Numbered from the stretch's first letter, positions 1,009 through 7,219 are shown. The stretch: 42,138 nucleotides of DNA from a virus (IMGVR_UViG_2737471818_000002:1-42138); one strand, 5' to 3'. A program made the numbers and translations. The notes: generated by a model not told the origin, from the letters alone.

Positions 1009-1083
1009 GTCCTCTTAGTTAAATGGATATAACGAGCCCCTCCTAAGGGCTAATTGCAGGTTCGATTCCTGCAGGGGACACCA
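1009..1083 (+). tRNA. argW: tRNA-Arg (anticodon CCU), integration target; 3' end forms attL
   Basis: 75-nt sequence GTCCTCTTAGTT...GGGGACACCA folds as a tRNA (acceptor GTCCTCT/AGGGGAC, T-loop TTCGATT, anticodon loop CTCCTAA, terminal CCA); matches recalled argW. Confidence 0.9.
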
Positions 1084-1244
1084 TTTATCAGTTCGCTCCC
1101 ATCCGTACCAGTCCGCAAAATCCCCTTAATATCAAGCCTTCCGTAGATTCACAGTTCGTCATGGTTCGCTTCAGATCGTTGACAGCCGCACTCCATGACG
1201 GGTAAAAAGTGGATAAAATAATTTTACCCACCGGATTTTTACCC

Positions 1245-2402
1245 ATGCTCACCGTTAAGCAGATTGAAGCAGCAAAGCCGAAAGAAAAACCATACCGCCT
1301 TCTCGATGGTAATGGCCTGTACCTTTATGTCCCTGTATCCGGGAAAAAGGTATGGCAGCTTCGCTACAAGATTGACGGTAAGGAAAAAATACTGACCGTA
1401 GGAAAATATCCGCTAATGACTTTGCAGGAGGCAAGAGATAAAGCATGGACCGCGAGGAAAGACATCTCGGTTGGCATCGATCCGGTAAAAGCGAAAAAGG
1501 CTTCGTCTAACAACAATTCCTTTAGTGCGATTTACAAGGAATGGTACGAGCACAAGAAGCAAGTCTGGTCAGTAGGCTATGCAACTGAACTTGCCAAAAT
1601 GTTTGATGACGACATTTTACCCATCATCGGCGGTCTTGAGATTCAGGATATTGAGCCGATGCAACTGTTGGAAGTAATCCGCAGATTTGAAGATCGCGGT
1701 GCAATGGAGCGAGCCAACAAAGCACGCAGAAGATGCGGCGAGGTTTTCCGTTACGCTATTGTCACCGGAAGGGCTAAATATAACCCGGCACCTGACCTTG
1801 CAGACGCCATGAAAGGATACCGCAAGAAGAACTTCCCGTTTCTTCCAGCAGACCAGATCCCTGCATTCAACAAAGCACTGGCAACATTTTCAGGAAGCAT
1901 CGTATCGCTCATTGCGACCAAAGTTTTACGCTACACAGCCCTAAGAACGAAAGAGCTTCGTTCCATGCTATGGAAGAACGTCGATTTTGAAAACAGGATT
2001 ATCACCATTGACGCCAGTGTGATGAAGGGCCGCAAGATTCATGTAGTACCGATGTCATCCCAGGTAGTTGAACTTCTCACTACGCTAAGCTCAATCACCA
2101 AACCAGTATCAGAGTTTGTTTTTGCCGGGCGCAACGATAAGAAGAAGCCAATCTGCGAGAACGCGGTATTGCTTGTGATCAAACAAATCGGCTATGAAGG
2201 TCTGGAAAGCGGTCACGGATTCAGGCATGAATTCAGCACGATTATGAACGAGCACGAATGGCCTGCCGACGCCATTGAAGTGCAACTTGCACATGCCAAC
2301 GGCGGATCTGTGCGAGGGATTTACAACCATGCTCAGTATCTCGATAAGCGCAGGGAGATGATGCAGTGGTGGGCGGACTGGCTTGATGAGAAGGTGGAGT
2401 GA
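1245..2402 (+). CDS. intS: Tyrosine recombinase / prophage integrase, P4 (IntS) family
   Basis: 385-aa ORF from the ATG at 1245, 160 bp downstream of argW in the same orientation; recalled match to CPS-53 IntS; C-terminal catalytic region with R...HGFRH...Y. Confidence 0.85.
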   Translation: MLTVKQIEAAKPKEKPYRLLDGNGLYLYVPVSGKKVWQLRYKIDGKEKILTVGKYPLMTLQEARDKAWTARKDISVGIDPVKAKKASSNNNSFSAIYKEWYEHKKQVWSVGYATELAKMFDDDILPIIGGLEIQDIEPMQLLEVIRRFEDRGAMERANKARRRCGEVFRYAIVTGRAKYNPAPDLADAMKGYRKKNFPFLPADQIPAFNKALATFSGSIVSLIATKVLRYTALRTKELRSMLWKNVDFENRIITIDASVMKGRKIHVVPMSSQVVELLTTLSSITKPVSEFVFAGRNDKKKPICENAVLLVIKQIGYEGLESGHGFRHEFSTIMNEHEWPADAIEVQLAHANGGSVRGIYNHAQYLDKRREMMQWWADWLDEKVE

Positions 2403-2555
2403 TCCACCTTAACCACTATCGAAGAGCACAAAGCCTTGCAATCCAGTATAAAGCTTTGTTTGTCTCAGTTTTGTTTTATCAACCACAGCAAGTCATCGAT
2501 CGATTGAGACTTGGATGATAGACTTCATGCCTTTGATTATTAGCTGACAGAAGAA

Positions 2556-2918
2556 ATGTTAAAGCTATTTGCAAAGTACACCTCGATTGGTGTGCTGAAC
2601 ACCCTTATACACTGGGTGGTTTTTGGTGTATGTATCTATGCCGCGCATACAAATCAGGCTCTGGCAAACTTCGCAGGTTTCGTTGTGGCTGTGAGTTTTA
2701 GCTTCTTCGCGAATGCAAAATTCACATTTAAGGCAACGACTACAACGATGCGCTACATGTTATATGTCGGGTTCATGGGAACACTGAGTGCTACTGTTGG
2801 ATGGGCTGCTGATAGATGTGCACTTCCTCCAATTGTCACTCTTGTCACCTTCTCCGCCATCAGCTTGGTGTGCGGTTTCGTCTATTCAAAGTTCATTGTC
2901 TTTAGGGATGCGAAATGA
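2556..2918 (+). CDS. gtrA: GtrA, bactoprenol-linked glucose flippase (O-antigen modification)
   Basis: 120-aa small membrane protein; first gene of a three-gene overlapping operon; recalled similarity to YfdG/GtrA. Confidence 0.85.
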
Positions 2919-5295: not shown

Positions 5296-5302
5296 AAATT
5301 AA

Positions 5303-5321
5303 AGGAGGGCGAGGCCCTCCT
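5303..5321. terminator. Bidirectional hairpin between convergent gtrC and tailspike genes
   Basis: AGGAGGGC-GAG-GCCCTCCT inverted repeat; T-rich tract on the minus-strand side. Confidence 0.45.
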
Positions 5322-5326
5322 TATCA

Positions 5327-7219
5327 TTATCCTACGCGTCTTGTTATGTTAACTGAAAATGCCGCATCAGCAGGCGAACCGGATGAATTTTTAGTTCTTA
5401 CATTAAATGCACTATCGCTAAGGTTAGCAGTACTCGTAACTGTGAATCCATCTGTGTTAGATACGGCAACCACCACAAAATCATTACCTGATGCTGAGAC
5501 CCCTAACGGATATGAGCTAGTTATCCCATATACTCCAGTAGATGATTTGCTTACTGATATATAATCAGGACCACTTATTTTAGTACCATCAGCAGCAACC
5601 TTGACAGGAATAACTTCACCTGATGAGTATAGAGTTCCAAGGCTGGTTCTTTCGCTAAATGTACATGTATTTAGACCATTTACTGTTAAATTTGGATTGG
5701 GGGTTATAAAAGGTTTGTCAGCTGTAGGGGTGTATCCCCAGGATGTATTTGTGAAAAAATGACATCCATTTAGATTTAATATAACCCTACCAATTCCACC
5801 AGGGACAGATATCTTAAAGTTGGTGGTTGTATATCCCCCGTCAGATCCACCGCGGTTAAACGTTACTCCATTTAGATTCACAACAACAGTTCCTCCTCCA
5901 GCATTAATAATATGAACATCAGCATCACCTCTATTCGCCTCAAAATAATTGCCATTCATATTAATAACGCATAAAGCTTGGGTTACTCTAAGTGCAATAG
6001 CCCCTGTTGAAGAGTCTCCTGTTACTCCATTCCTTTCAAAATTGCAATTATCAATATTACATGTTAATCCAATAACTCCTTCAATCGCTTTTCTGGAGCA
6101 TGATGATATCGATGAGTTGGTAATATATGTAGAATTTGTTGGAAACGAAGAATCAGGTGATTCAATGTATAAACCATATAATGAATTATCTACCCTTATA
6201 TTTTTTACATAGTTATAGATACAACTTGAGAAATATACAGGGATGCCAAGTAACGCGGCGCGAACATTCTCAACAGCAATAAACGTGCAAAAACTGTACT
6301 TGAGGCCACCGCTTGCAGTTTTACCCGTACCAATGATTTGAAAATCCCCGTGCCTCATATGCGTGTTAGTTCCCTGTACAACCGAACCAGAAACGCCGCC
6401 TGTATGTGTGAGCAGGAAATTATTATCAACTGTAAAAATAGTATTGTTTAGAGAGGATCCAACAAAATCATAACGTGGACTGCCAGCCCCCAGCGATGGG
6501 AATGATGAATCGCTGAAATTTGTAACAAGAGCAGTATTTACCGCATATCGACCATCAGGGATCTTAATCTCCCCTTTCCCCGCAGTAAGCAATGCCTGCA
6601 AACGAGTCGAAACGTCAGTATTTGGTGATGTATTAGGGAGCCACGCTTTAATGCGTGAGCCAATGTCAGATGTCCAGCCTAAGTCTGGCGATGAGCCAGA
6701 TGCAACGATAACGCTATCTCCGGTTACTCTTGCATAGCACTTTCCATCAAACTTATACCATACAGCCTGATTTGGTGCGCTAACTGTTGCCCCTTCCTCA
6801 AAGCTACCATCAACTAGAACGATTCCAAATTCCTTCAAGTACTTCTTCCATAATTCCCTGCTACTCAGGAATGATGTGACTGACCGCGTGTCATTTTTAA
6901 CTCTCGAGAAGTAATACTCCTGAGAGCCGTATGCATCGTACACAGCCATAGAATAGCCTTGCACGGTTACGAACTTGGAAATCTGTCCGTTATATACCGG
7001 GTAACCAGCAGCGTTAATGATGATTGGTTGCGATACAGGAACGTGAGAGCCGTCTTCGTTTTCCACATAAACCTGAATCTGGTTTTCAGGATTTACCGGG
7101 TCAGTGTCAATTTTACCGATATAAATTTTGCCATTGGCTACGGCTTTAAAAGAACGCGCCATAGTGAATAGTTGCGAAGGCATCGATACGATCACATTGG
7201 CATTTATTGAATCTGTCAT
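5327..7219 (-). CDS. Tailspike protein: P22/Sf6-type N-terminal head-binding domain plus divergent beta-helix receptor-binding domain
   Basis: 630-aa ORF; N-terminal ~110 aa closely match recalled P22 gp9/Sf6 tailspike head-binding domain ([22 protein letters not shown]...); C-terminal part Gly/Ser/Thr/Asn-rich and AT-rich. Confidence 0.85.

What the first reader, a model, noticed from the sequence alone, without database searches (positions are those of the whole stretch)
1009..7219. Sf6-like end architecture with a glucosylation operon in place of oac
The order argW, integrase, gtrA, gtrB, gtrC, then a convergent tailspike gene places the O-antigen modification genes between the integrase and the tailspike with no att site between int and gtr. 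This differs from P22, where gtrABC and int lie on opposite sides of attP, and resembles what I recall of Sf6, where oac sits next to int. The receptor-modifying and receptor-binding genes are therefore adjacent and convergent.
Basis: partly seen in the sequence, partly recalled or inferred. Interest (0 to 1): 0.4.

Follow-up and report, generated by a model that had tools for sequence, protein, structure and literature searches.

The report
Sf6-type prophage end carrying gtrABC
An apparently intact P22-like prophage sits in the argW tRNA gene with its integrase, an O-antigen glucosylation operon and its tailspike gene side by side; this layout is already known, but the sugar-adding enzyme and the receptor-binding part of the tailspike are a previously uncharacterised pair that moves between phages as one DNA block.

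Summary
The att core occurs only twice, at 1069-1083 and 40435-40449. Joining the two prophage ends rebuilds the Sf6/HF4s attP at 98.2% over 326 nt. So int-gtrABC belongs to one ~39.4 kb Sf6/HK620-type prophage, not to a neighbouring remnant.

The layout is not new. Phage HF4s has the same gene order and glucosylates its host's O-antigen. K-12 CPS-53 has the same argW-intS-gtrABC head, and the best-matching complete E. coli genomes have the full order.

Only the position of attP differs.

What is specific here is the gtrC plus tailspike receptor-binding-domain pair. It has no megablast match in 5,426 complete E. coli genomes. Its closest characterised relatives are SfII GtrII (31%) and Sf11 gp13 (28%).

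The pair behaves as a recombination cassette. It is 99.9% identical between E. coli prophages whose flanks are 84-96% identical. It is also collinear at 81-91% with a Hafnia paralvei myovirus-type prophage. The linkage is leaky.

The Dam/OxyR phase-variation signature is absent.

The parts
1..933 (+). Host gene of the yfdC type (formate/nitrite transporter family); left chromosomal flank.
   Evidence: Pfam Form_Nir_trans, E 1e-48. It sits in the same position as yfdC in K-12.
1009..1083 (+). argW, tRNA-Arg(CCT); the integration target.
   Evidence: ARAGORN. K-12 argW lies in the same context.
1069..1083 (+). attL core, CTGCAGGGGACACCA, which is the 3' end of argW.
   Evidence: Exactly two copies in the window, with 0.07 expected by chance. 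It is identical to the annotated Sf6 attP core.
1245..2402 (+). IntS-type tyrosine integrase, 385 aa. The listed ORF starts at GTG 1209; the ATG at 1245 matches the homologues.
   Evidence: Pfam integrase domains. 99.7% identical to K-12 IntS, 99.5% to HF4s Int, 99.0% to Sf6 Int, and no blastp hit to P22 Int.
2430..2534 (+). int-gtrA spacer. It is homologous to the stretch that lies between the thrW-type attP core and gtrA in SfII and P22, so it is a recombination scar. It holds the gtr promoter by homology: -35 TCGATC at 2496-2501 and -10 TAGACT at 2519-2524.
   Evidence: Local alignments to L074 (SfII-like) and to P22. Homology to Sf6 ends at 2395. Only one GATC (2498) of P22's four is present. 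The consensus promoter scan did not find this promoter.
2556..2918 (+). gtrA, the flippase for undecaprenyl-phosphate-glucose.
   Evidence: PF04138. 98% identical to HF4s GtrA, 97% to K-12 YfdG, 79% to P22 GtrA.
2915..3832 (+). gtrB, bactoprenol glucosyltransferase (GT2).
   Evidence: PF00535, E 7.5e-31. 94% identical to HF4s, 89% to K-12 YfdH, 89% to P22 GtrB. ATGA overlaps at both ends.
3829..5295 (+). gtrC, the serotype-specific glucosyltransferase of the GtrII family. It is a polytopic membrane protein encoded by DNA of 32.5% GC.
   Evidence: PF14264, 99.5 bits. About 10-12 hydrophobic segments and low GC. 31% identical to SfII GtrII, which is the only hit among sequenced phages. 89% identical to a Hafnia paralvei protein and 100% identical in 8 E. 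coli contigs. No blastp hit to YfdI or to the P22, HF4s or Meifeng GtrC proteins.
5302..5322 (.). Hairpin AAGGAGGGC-GAG-GCCCTCCTT between the two convergent genes. It is a likely terminator, and also a recombination breakpoint.
   Evidence: -15.9 kcal/mol, z = -4.0. Terminator-like on the - strand with a T-rich tail. Homology to L013 starts at 5314.
5327..6915 (-). Tailspike receptor-binding domain, residues ~102-630.
   Evidence: All PHROG hits to the tailspike lie within residues 1-173, so none covers this part. Homologous to Sf11 gp13, an O-antigen tailspike: E 2e-31, 28% identity. The AF2 model has a confident beta-rich core at residues 290-490, and the fold hits are P22, Sf6 and HK620 tailspikes at low TM-scores. 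83% identical to a Hafnia paralvei tailspike with a different N-terminus.
6916..7219 (-). Tailspike head-binding domain; the conserved P22-type adaptor.
   Evidence: PF09008, E 3e-57. PDB hits to the Sf6 and P22 N-terminal domains. Homology to other P22-like loci resumes at 6908-6930.
2737..7000 (.). The most recently exchanged block: 3' half of gtrA, gtrB, gtrC, the terminator, the RBD and part of the head-binding domain.
   Evidence: Only 5 differences in 4,264 nt against L007, while the flanks diverge: int 95.7%, spacer 84.3%, head-binding domain 92.4%.
40161..40361 (+). xis (TorI-type recombination directionality factor) at the far end of the prophage.
   Evidence: 66 aa, 100% identical to K-12 TorI, Sf6 gp18 and HF4s Xis.
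40435..40449 (+). attR core.
   Evidence: Second and last copy of the core. The left side of attR joined to the right side of attL gives a contiguous 326-nt match, 98.2%, to the attP regions of Sf6 and HF4s.

Best explanation
Window 1069-40449 is one apparently intact Sf6/HK620-type P22-like (Lederbergvirus) prophage. It integrated into the 3' end of argW through an attP that lies between xis and int. After integration, int is therefore the first gene behind attL and xis the last gene before attR.

Immediately downstream of int is a lysogenic-conversion gtrABC operon with its own promoter. Its proposed mechanism is inferred from family knowledge and not shown here:
1. GtrB loads glucose from UDP-glucose onto undecaprenyl phosphate.
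2. GtrA flips the lipid-linked glucose to the periplasmic face.
3. The GtrII-family GtrC attaches the glucose to one specific sugar of the host O-unit.

The modified O-antigen is the receptor of the prophage's own tailspike, whose gene is convergent and 31 nt away. Glucosylation should therefore block adsorption and cleavage by this and similar phages. That gives superinfection exclusion, protects the lysogen's O-antigen and prevents re-adsorption of progeny.

Expression is probably constitutive rather than Dam/OxyR phase-variable.

In evolution, gtrC and the tailspike receptor-binding domain form a specificity cassette. It is usually, but not always, exchanged as one piece by homologous recombination in the conserved flanks, which are gtrA/gtrB on one side and the head-binding domain on the other. 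The terminator hairpin is an occasional internal breakpoint.
For: Shown here:
- Gene identities and order.
- A single att pair.
- attP rebuilt from the two ends matches Sf6 and HF4s contiguously, 326 nt at 98.2%.
- Int is 99-99.7% and Xis 100% identical to the Sf6, HF4s and K-12 proteins.
- A full P22-type virion gene set plus repressor and replication genes, and a backbone ~96% identical to IME10 over 59% of the query.
- The free phage HF4s has the contiguous order xis-int-gtrA-gtrB-gtrC-><-tailspike.

Cassette evidence:
- Homology of 30 or more P22-like loci to the window stops at 3784-3848 and resumes at 6908-6930.
- Among 40 loci, including the window and six near-identical E. coli loci, there are 23 gtrC types, 22 RBD types and only 24 combinations.
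- Against L007-L012, the block 2737-7000 has 5 differences in 4,264 nt. The flanks are much more diverged: int 95.7%, spacer 84.3%, head-binding domain 92.4%.
- Against Hafnia paralvei there is a gap-free 4,282-nt collinear match. Identity is highest (81-91%) across gtrC, the terminator and the tailspike 3' end. The Hafnia copy sits in a Meifeng/phiEt88-like myovirus prophage with a different tailspike N-terminus.

From the literature:
- HF4s lysogens gain one side-chain glucose (by NMR) and no longer adsorb HF4s (10.1101/2021.06.09.447823).
- BTP1 GtrC protects the O-antigen from the convergently encoded BTP1 tailspike, and blocks superinfection and re-adsorption (PMC4413052).
- Conserved gtrA/gtrB with a serotype-specific gtrC is established for this operon type (PMC2629481).
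- Only 1 of the 4 GATC sites of the phase-variation signature is present.
Against: - No biochemical or phenotypic data exist for this GtrC or this tailspike. The host O-antigen, the acceptor sugar and the linkage are all unknown.
- The gtrA promoter is assigned only by homology to P22. The consensus scan did not find it.
- The hairpin lacks a T-tract on the + strand, so termination of gtr transcription there is inferred.
- Linkage is leaky. Several locus pairs share a gtrC that is 96-100% identical but have RBDs only 78-85% identical, or unrelated (L023/L029, L030/L031, L085/L091, L026/L027).
- RBDs of this family also occur with a STM0557-type GtrC or with an acyltransferase.
- The near one-to-one pairing is partly explained by shared descent.
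- Intactness and inducibility of the prophage are inferred from gene content only.
Confidence: 0.82

Rival explanations
1. int-gtrABC is a separate CPS-53-like cryptic remnant resident at argW, and an independent P22-like prophage lies beside it.
For: K-12 CPS-53 is exactly such a remnant: argW-intS-yfdG-yfdH-yfdI with no tailspike. Several E. coli loci are deletion remnants that keep int-gtrABC-tailspike (L009, L011, L012). The left end as far as 7234 occurs with different downstream prophage content. The left end could therefore have been inherited from a resident element by recombination.
Against: There are only two att cores in 42 kb, at the outer ends. No thrW-type core is present, and no other flanking repeat of 14 nt or more. 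The two ends rebuild one contiguous Sf6/HF4s attP. int at one end pairs with its cognate xis at the other. The free phage HF4s packages the same contiguous order.
Confidence: 0.06
2. The gtr/tailspike adjacency has no selective meaning. The slot between the last late gene and int/att is simply a permissive landing site for morons, and apparent co-transfer only reflects physical proximity.
For: The slot holds unrelated cargo in relatives: oac in Sf6, an O-acetylase in 611R6, hypothetical genes in N7 and Kapi1. gtrC and the RBD can be exchanged separately. The same RBD family pairs with three different modifying enzymes.
Against: In the relatives examined, the slot's cargo with an assignable function is a surface-polysaccharide modifier. 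The same convergent pairing recurs in three places:
- in epsilon15-like prophages, where the acyltransferase lies between the tailspike and the lysis genes rather than beside an annotated integrase;
- in Meifeng-type myoviruses;
- in a P22-like remnant at the bio/att-lambda site.
BTP1 experiments show direct functional coupling of GtrC with the adjacent tailspike.
Confidence: 0.1
3. The gtr operon is switched ON and OFF by Dam/OxyR phase variation, as in P22 and many Salmonella gtr operons. The lysogen population would then be heterogeneous for the modification.
For: The -35 element overlapping GATC-4 and the -10 element are conserved with P22. Some operons lacking one GATC still phase-vary (PMC3688519).
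Against: Only one GATC (2498) lies in the 153 nt upstream of gtrA, against four in P22 at 135, 122, 71 and 58 nt from the ATG. The OxyR half-site region of P22 is missing. The spacer is of the S. flexneri phage type, and no phase variation has been reported for that type. S. Choleraesuis gtr SCB67_I, which keeps only the -35/GATC-4 and -10 elements, did not phase-vary.
Confidence: 0.05

Closest known systems
Escherichia phage HF4s (MT833387; Kulikov et al. 2021), an O-seroconverting Lederbergvirus
   Same: Same gene order, xis-attP-int-gtrA-gtrB-gtrC-><-tailspike. 91.7% nt identity from the att core to the end of gtrB. Int 99.5%, GtrA 98%, GtrB 94%, Xis 100%. The attP region is 98.2% identical to the attP rebuilt here. 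Glucosylation of the O-antigen and loss of adsorption were shown experimentally.
   Different: Its GtrC (410 aa) and tailspike RBD (791-aa protein) are unrelated to those here: no blastp or blastn match beyond window position 3836.
Shigella phage Sf6 (NC_005344)
   Same: An argW-type attP between xis and int. Int is 99.0% identical. A conversion gene sits between int and a convergent tailspike with a terminator between them. The head-binding domain is 84% identical at nt level.
   Different: The slot holds a single O-acetyltransferase, oac, instead of gtrABC. Homology ends at window 2395, 7 nt before the int stop codon, and resumes at 6916. Its RBD is a different one, an endorhamnosidase.
E. 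coli K-12 cryptic prophage CPS-53/KpLE1
   Same: yfdC-argW-intS-yfdG-yfdH-yfdI...torI-attR (pawZ). IntS is 99.7%, YfdG 97%, YfdH 89% and TorI 100% identical.
   Different: It is a 10-kb remnant. YfdI is unrelated to this GtrC. It has no tailspike; tail-fibre fragments follow instead.
Salmonella phage P22
   Same: A gtrABC operon convergent with the tailspike and separated from it by a terminator. GtrA is 79% and GtrB 89% identical. The P22-type virion module is shared. Part of the sequence upstream of gtrA is homologous.
   Different: attP (thrW type) lies between gtrA and int, so gtrABC and int end up at opposite ends of the prophage. The integrase is unrelated. It has the four-GATC phase-variation signature. 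Its GtrC and RBD are unrelated.
Shigella phage SfII GtrII (serotype-specific glucosyltransferase)
   Same: It is the only sequenced-phage protein with detectable similarity to this GtrC: 31% identity over 99% of the length. Both belong to Pfam family PF14264. The region upstream of gtrA is also closest to the SfII type.
   Different: 31% identity implies a different acceptor or linkage. SfII has a thrW-type attP next to gtrA.
Hafnia paralvei prophage related to phage vB_HpaM_Meifeng / Erwinia phiEt88 (myovirus)
   Same: gtrA-gtrB-gtrC-><-tailspike is collinear with window 2554-6828. GtrC is 89% and the RBD 83% identical. The match is gap-free across the intergenic hairpin.
   Different: It has a contractile-tail, baseplate-type virion module. 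The tailspike N-terminus is Tail_spike_N (PF18668), not Head_binding. No int lies beside gtrA; a CP4-57-like island is adjacent.

Membership tests
Sf6/HK620-type argW-integrating P22-like (Lederbergvirus) prophage | Integration into the 3' end of argW, with the 15-16 bp core duplicated at both ends. | tested here: met
   The core is at 1069-1083 and 40435-40449 only, and is identical to the Sf6 attP core.
Sf6/HK620-type argW-integrating P22-like (Lederbergvirus) prophage | attP lies between xis and int, so int is at attL and xis at attR. | tested here: met
   int is 1245-2402 and xis 40161-40361. The rebuilt attP is contiguous in Sf6 and HF4s at 98.2% over 326 nt. The Kapi1 paper states this layout for Sf6, HK620 and KplE1.
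Sf6/HK620-type argW-integrating P22-like (Lederbergvirus) prophage | IntS-type integrase and TorI-type Xis. | tested here: met
   99.0-99.7% and 100% identity respectively.
Sf6/HK620-type argW-integrating P22-like (Lederbergvirus) prophage | P22-type virion module: portal, coat, gp4/gp10, ejection proteins gp7/gp20/gp16, and a tailspike with a head-binding domain. | tested here: met
   Pfam P22_portal, P22_CoatProtein, Phage_stabilise, P22_gp7, Inj_translocase and Head_binding. PHROG DNA transfer protein. ~96% nt identity to IME10.
Sf6/HK620-type argW-integrating P22-like (Lederbergvirus) prophage | The prophage is inducible and packages the whole element. | not testable with these tools
   Gene content looks complete, but there is no experimental data.
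gtrABC O-antigen glucosylation operon | The three-gene operon GtrA (PF04138), GtrB (GT2) and a polytopic GtrC, tightly coupled. | tested here: met
   Pfam hits. ATGA overlaps and about 10-12 hydrophobic segments in GtrC.
gtrABC O-antigen glucosylation operon | Adds glucose to the O-unit of the host. | not testable with these tools
   Inferred from HF4s and from the Shigella and Salmonella systems.
GtrII family of serotype-specific glucosyltransferases (PF14264) | Sequence membership in the family. | tested here: met
   99.5 bits against a cut-off of 30. 31% identity to SfII GtrII over 99% of the length. PHROG 4829, GtrC-like.
GtrII family of serotype-specific glucosyltransferases (PF14264) | Same acceptor and linkage as GtrII. 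From memory, this is glucose on rhamnose III of the S. flexneri O-unit. | not tested
   31% identity and an E. coli/Hafnia host range make identical specificity unlikely. The host O-antigen is unknown.
P22-type arrangement (gtrABC | attP | int) | An att core between gtrA and int. | tested here: not met
   Neither an argW nor a thrW core lies in 2403-2555. Only a homologue of the sequence that flanks the thrW-type attP in P22 and SfII remains.
Dam/OxyR phase-variable gtr promoters (Broadbent/Davies signature) | Four GATC sites within two overlapping OxyR sites upstream of gtrA. | tested here: not met
   There is one GATC, at 58 nt from the ATG, against 135, 122, 71 and 58 nt in P22. The criterion is taken from PMC3688519.
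P22/Sf6-like O-antigen-specific tailspikes | An N-terminal head-binding domain followed by a trimeric parallel beta-helix receptor-binding domain. | tested here: inconclusive
   The head-binding domain is clear. The RBD is homologous to Sf11 gp13. The AF2 model is confident only for residues 290-490 (mean pLDDT 62.5), and its fold hits are tailspikes at low TM-scores. Enzymatic activity was not tested.

The most novel reading that the evidence does not exclude
gtrC, the terminator and the tailspike receptor-binding domain form a portable 'bind-it-and-mask-it' cassette. The cassette moves as one DNA segment between unrelated virion types (P22-like podovirus and Meifeng/phiEt88-like myovirus) and between genera (Escherichia and Hafnia). 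Conserved gtrA/gtrB and adaptor-domain sequences act as recombination handles.

If this is general, the O-antigen substrate of an orphan GtrC or O-acetyltransferase could be predicted from the neighbouring tailspike, and the reverse. A switch in phage host range would then automatically bring the matching superinfection-exclusion function with it.
Probability: 0.45. Interest if true: 0.5.

Novelty: new member of a known kind. Interest (0 to 1): 0.3.

Why it matters
The architecture itself is textbook and needs no follow-up as a novelty.

What may be useful is the specificity pair. This GtrII-family GtrC and this tailspike RBD are absent from all 5,426 complete E. coli genomes searched and have only distant relatives (28-31% identical) among sequenced phages. 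They are nevertheless shared at 83-89% protein identity with Hafnia paralvei. That points to a shared or related O-antigen and to exchange of receptor-specificity modules between the two genera.

The sharp breakpoints make this locus a clean natural example of how temperate phages change host specificity and the matching receptor masking in a single recombination event. The breakpoints are in mid-gtrA or at the gtrB 3' end, at the hairpin, and at about codon 100 of the tailspike. This is relevant to O-serotype evolution, to engineering phage host range and to predicting the substrates of orphan Gtr enzymes.

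Tried and rejected
- The consensus sigma-70 scan of 1000-8600 found no more promoter-like sites than shuffles did and missed the gtrA promoter. The promoter assignment therefore rests on homology to P22 only.
- The first multiple alignment of gtrA upstream regions used wrong coordinates for L074 and was uninformative. It was redone as local pairwise alignments.
- One Pfam call failed because the xis coordinates were off by one. It was corrected.
- A 13-nt direct repeat, AGTTTTGTTTTAT, at 2467 and 39785 was considered as an alternative att pair. 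It was rejected: it is T-rich, the second copy is the T-tail of a terminator-like hairpin, and such an element would exclude both int and xis.
- GtrC has no relative in the PDB by sequence.
- All PHROG hits to the tailspike lie within residues 1-173, so none covers the rest of the RBD.
- The AF2 model of the tailspike, built from a 12-sequence alignment, had a mean pLDDT of only 62.5. Foldseek TM-scores were low, so it was used only qualitatively.
- Strict one-to-one gtrC-RBD linkage was considered and rejected because of counter-examples and because the same RBD family pairs with other modifying enzymes.
- The contigs carrying RBD relatives P0117 and P0119 end too close to the tailspike to show the downstream gene.

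Full report
**1. Observation**

The window opens with a yfdC-type host gene (1-933), followed by tRNA-Arg(CCT), which is argW, at 1009-1083.

- A tyrosine integrase at 1245-2402. The mechanical ORF starts at GTG 1209.
- gtrA at 2556-2918 (PF04138).
- gtrB at 2915-3832 (GT2).
- gtrC at 3829-5295 (PF14264 Glucos_trans_II, 99.5 bits).
- On the opposite strand, a 630-aa tailspike at 5327-7219, with the P22 head-binding domain at residues 4-107.

The gtr genes overlap by ATGA. A perfect 9-bp hairpin at 5302-5322 fills the 31-nt gap between gtrC and the tailspike gene (-15.9 kcal/mol, z = -4.0). It is terminator-like for the tailspike strand. gtrC has 32.5% GC, against ~48% for the host flank and the rest of the prophage. 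The coordinates given in the finding are exact.

**2. One element or two?**

The core CTGCAGGGGACACCA occurs only at 1069-1083 (the end of argW) and at 40435-40449. Chance would give 0.07 matches, and no shuffle gave two. The P22/thrW core is absent. No repeat of 14 nt or more links either spacer to any other part of the window.

Joining the left side of attR to the right side of attL gives a 326-nt sequence. It matches the attP regions of Sf6 and HF4s contiguously at 98.2%.

The protein identities agree:
- The integrase is 99.7% identical to K-12 IntS, 99.5% to HF4s Int and 99.0% to Sf6 Int. It has no detectable similarity to P22 Int.
- The 66-aa Xis at 40161-40361 is 100% identical to TorI, Sf6 gp18 and HF4s Xis.

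Between the two ends lies a full P22-type gene set:
- ejection proteins, gp10-like protein, coat, portal and large terminase;
- a DnaB-type helicase and a CI-type repressor.

The backbone is ~96% identical to IME10 over 59% of the query. The element is therefore a single ~39.4 kb Sf6/HK620-type prophage, and int-gtrABC belongs to it.

**3. Comparison with the named relatives**

- Sf6 reads xis-attP-int-oac-><-tailspike. Its homology to the window ends at 2395, 7 nt before the int stop, and resumes at 6916 inside the head-binding domain.
- P22 reads gene 9-><-gtrC-gtrB-gtrA, then attP, then int-xis. But P22 also has gtr convergent with its tailspike, so that adjacency is not a consequence of the Sf6-type att position.
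- K-12 CPS-53 reads argW-intS-yfdG-yfdH-yfdI...torI-pawZ.
- The sequenced phage HF4s has exactly the order seen here and is 91.7% identical from the att core to the end of gtrB. Its lysogens gain one side-chain glucose (by NMR) and stop adsorbing HF4s.
- All 25 best-matching complete E. coli genomes are annotated argW-side intS-yfdG-yfdH, then a gtrC-type gene, then a head-binding or tailspike protein.

The architecture is therefore already known.

**4. The int-gtrA junction**

From 2430 to 2534 the spacer is homologous to the sequence that lies between the thrW-type attP core and gtrA in an SfII-like contig and in P22. The thrW core itself is missing. I read this as a recombination scar: a gtr module that once sat beside a P22/SfII-type attP was joined 28 nt downstream of an argW-type int. 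This reading is an inference.

The P22 promoter elements align with window positions 2496-2501 and 2519-2524 (-35 TCGATC, 17-nt spacer, -10 TA[C/G]ACT). Of the four GATC sites that define the Dam/OxyR phase-variation signature, only the -35 one is present (PMC3688519). P22 has them at 135, 122, 71 and 58 nt from the ATG; the window has only the one at 58 nt. Of the upstream regions examined, 46 had one GATC, 24 two, 6 four and 4 none. Expression is probably not phase-variable, as in BTP1 and the S. flexneri phages.

**5. What is specific to this locus**

GtrC:
- It is 100% identical in 8 E. coli contigs and 89% identical to a Hafnia paralvei protein.
- Among 50,697 phage records it matches only SfII GtrII, at 31%.
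- It has no blastp similarity to YfdI or to the GtrC proteins of P22, HF4s or Meifeng.

Tailspike RBD:
- PHROG hits to the tailspike lie within residues 1-173 only, so none covers the rest of the RBD.
- Its best phage relatives are about 28% identical (Sf11, Sf101, an Aeromonas phage).
- It is homologous to Sf11 gp13 (E 2e-31), the tailspike of a siphophage that uses O-antigen as its primary receptor.
- The AF2 model is confident only in a beta-rich core (residues 290-490). Its fold neighbours are Sf6, P22 and HK620 tailspikes at low TM-scores.

The segment 3850-6900 has no megablast match in 5,426 complete E. coli genomes.

**6. The cassette**

(a) Survey of related loci. Among 80 IMG/VR loci whose GtrB is at least 89% identical, 33 show gtrAB-gtrC-><-P22-type tailspike with a 2-321 nt gap (40 loci in all with HF4s, the six E. 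coli loci L007-L012 and the window). Their homology to the window stops at 3784-3848 (apart from one locus that reaches 3999) and resumes at 6908-6930. The hypervariable unit is therefore gtrC, the hairpin and tailspike residues ~102-630. At 60% identity there are 23 gtrC types, 22 RBD types and 24 combinations. Part of this near one-to-one pattern is shared descent.

(b) Within E. coli. Loci L007-L012 differ from the window by 5 of 4,264 nt across 2737-7000. The flanks are much more diverged: int 95.7%, int-gtrA spacer 84.3%, head-binding domain 92.4%, host flank 98.1%. Everything beyond 7234 is different or deleted. This is the signature of recent homologous replacement of the block, with breakpoints in gtrA and in the head-binding domain.

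(c) Across genera and virion types. Window 2554-6828 aligns gap-free over 4,282 nt to Hafnia paralvei. Identity is 66-75% in gtrAB, 81-91% from the start of gtrC through the hairpin into the tailspike 3' end, and 62-81% (mostly 70-73%) in the rest of the RBD. It drops to noise outside these limits. The Hafnia tailspike has a Tail_spike_N adaptor and sits in a myovirus-type prophage. Its baseplate protein is 97.9% identical to that of phage Meifeng and 77% to that of phiEt88. Meifeng itself has tailspike-><-gtrCBA, with a different GtrC.

(d) The linkage is leaky.
- L013 has a 77.5%-identical RBD starting at 5314, but a different 424-aa gtrC.
- Four locus pairs share a gtrC that is 96-100% identical but have RBDs only 78-85% identical, or unrelated.
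- RBD relatives at 59-77% identity occur in P22-like prophages with a STM0557_N-type GtrC, one at argW and one at the bio/att-lambda site with P22-like topology.
- They also occur in epsilon15-like prophages with a convergent Acyl_transf_3 gene.
- One occurs in a prophage with a GpJ-type tail tip.
- GtrC relatives at 43-50% identity pair with other RBDs.

In all six distinct contexts that could be examined, besides the window's own set, the gene immediately 3' of and convergent with the tailspike is an O-antigen modifier.

**7. Mechanism**

Shown here: gene content, the operon structure, a single integrated element, and the pattern of cassette exchange.

Inferred from family knowledge and experiments on relatives:
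1. GtrB makes undecaprenyl-phosphate-glucose, GtrA flips it, and GtrC glucosylates a specific O-unit sugar.
2. The modification blocks recognition or cleavage by the prophage's own tailspike. This gives superinfection exclusion, protects the lysogen's O-antigen and reduces re-adsorption of progeny. These effects were demonstrated for BTP1, where GtrC counteracts the convergently encoded tailspike, and for HF4s.

Physical linkage means that one recombination event changes both receptor specificity and the matching receptor mask.

**8. Verdict**

This is a new member of a known kind: a new gtrC/RBD specificity pair in the HF4s/CPS-53-type end architecture. The observation with some wider value is the cassette-like co-transfer, including transfer between a podovirus-type and a myovirus-type prophage in different genera. 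Interest is 0.3.

Noticed in passing
window 40126-40141: TTGCAGGTTCGATTCC is an exact 16-nt copy of argW positions 1054-1069, the T-arm segment immediately 5' of the att core. It lies ~295 nt upstream of the attR core, just before xis. The surrounding 60 nt are 100% conserved in Sf6 and HF4s. It may be a relic of an old imprecise excision or a second Int-related site.
   Followed up: partly
window 40029-40124: A 31-aa ORF (MESHSLTLDEACSFLKISRHTIAAS...) resembles, from memory, the N-terminus of an AlpA/MerR-type excisionase. It is truncated just before the tRNA-like fragment. It could be a remnant of another integrative element.
   Followed up: no
window 40891-42138 (-): The right chromosomal flank is a 415-aa polytopic permease; from memory it is LacY-like and resembles the sucrose permease CscB. 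K-12 has dsdC at this position. It matches phrog_17800. The host therefore differs from K-12 at the argW-dsd hypervariable locus.
   Followed up: no
window 7254-8544: The 'ant moron' slot between the tailspike and the gp16 homologue has no mnt, arc or ant genes. It holds two genes of unknown function: phrog_1365 at 7659-8024 (-) and phrog_6067 at 8008-8544 (+). Relatives with the same left end have an Arc/Mnt-like gene there.
   Followed up: partly
window 8547-10664 (-): The gp16-type DNA-transfer protein (705 aa) has an N-terminal region that matches transglycosylase and lytic tail-fibre PHROGs. Some relatives have an SLT domain fused to gp16 (L010; L105).
   Followed up: no
L009, L011, L012 (E. 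coli contigs): Several E. coli strains carry deletion remnants that keep int-gtrABC-tailspike and the xis end but have lost most of the prophage. This suggests selection to retain the conversion module, as in K-12 CPS-53.
   Followed up: partly
L003 1-8316 (Hafnia paralvei): In Hafnia the gtr end of the myovirus-type prophage abuts a CP4-57-like island carrying YfjS/YfjT, an antirestriction gene, RadC, CbtA/CbeA and DUF4942. The two mobile elements lie in tandem.
   Followed up: no
L096/L097 (E. coli): A P22-like remnant with a lambda-type integrase (Arm-DNA-bind_1) lies between the ybhC-side genes and bioA. From memory this is the att-lambda region. It carries gtrABC at the end opposite to int, which is the P22-like topology, together with a tailspike RBD of the same family as the window's (76% identical).
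   Followed up: no
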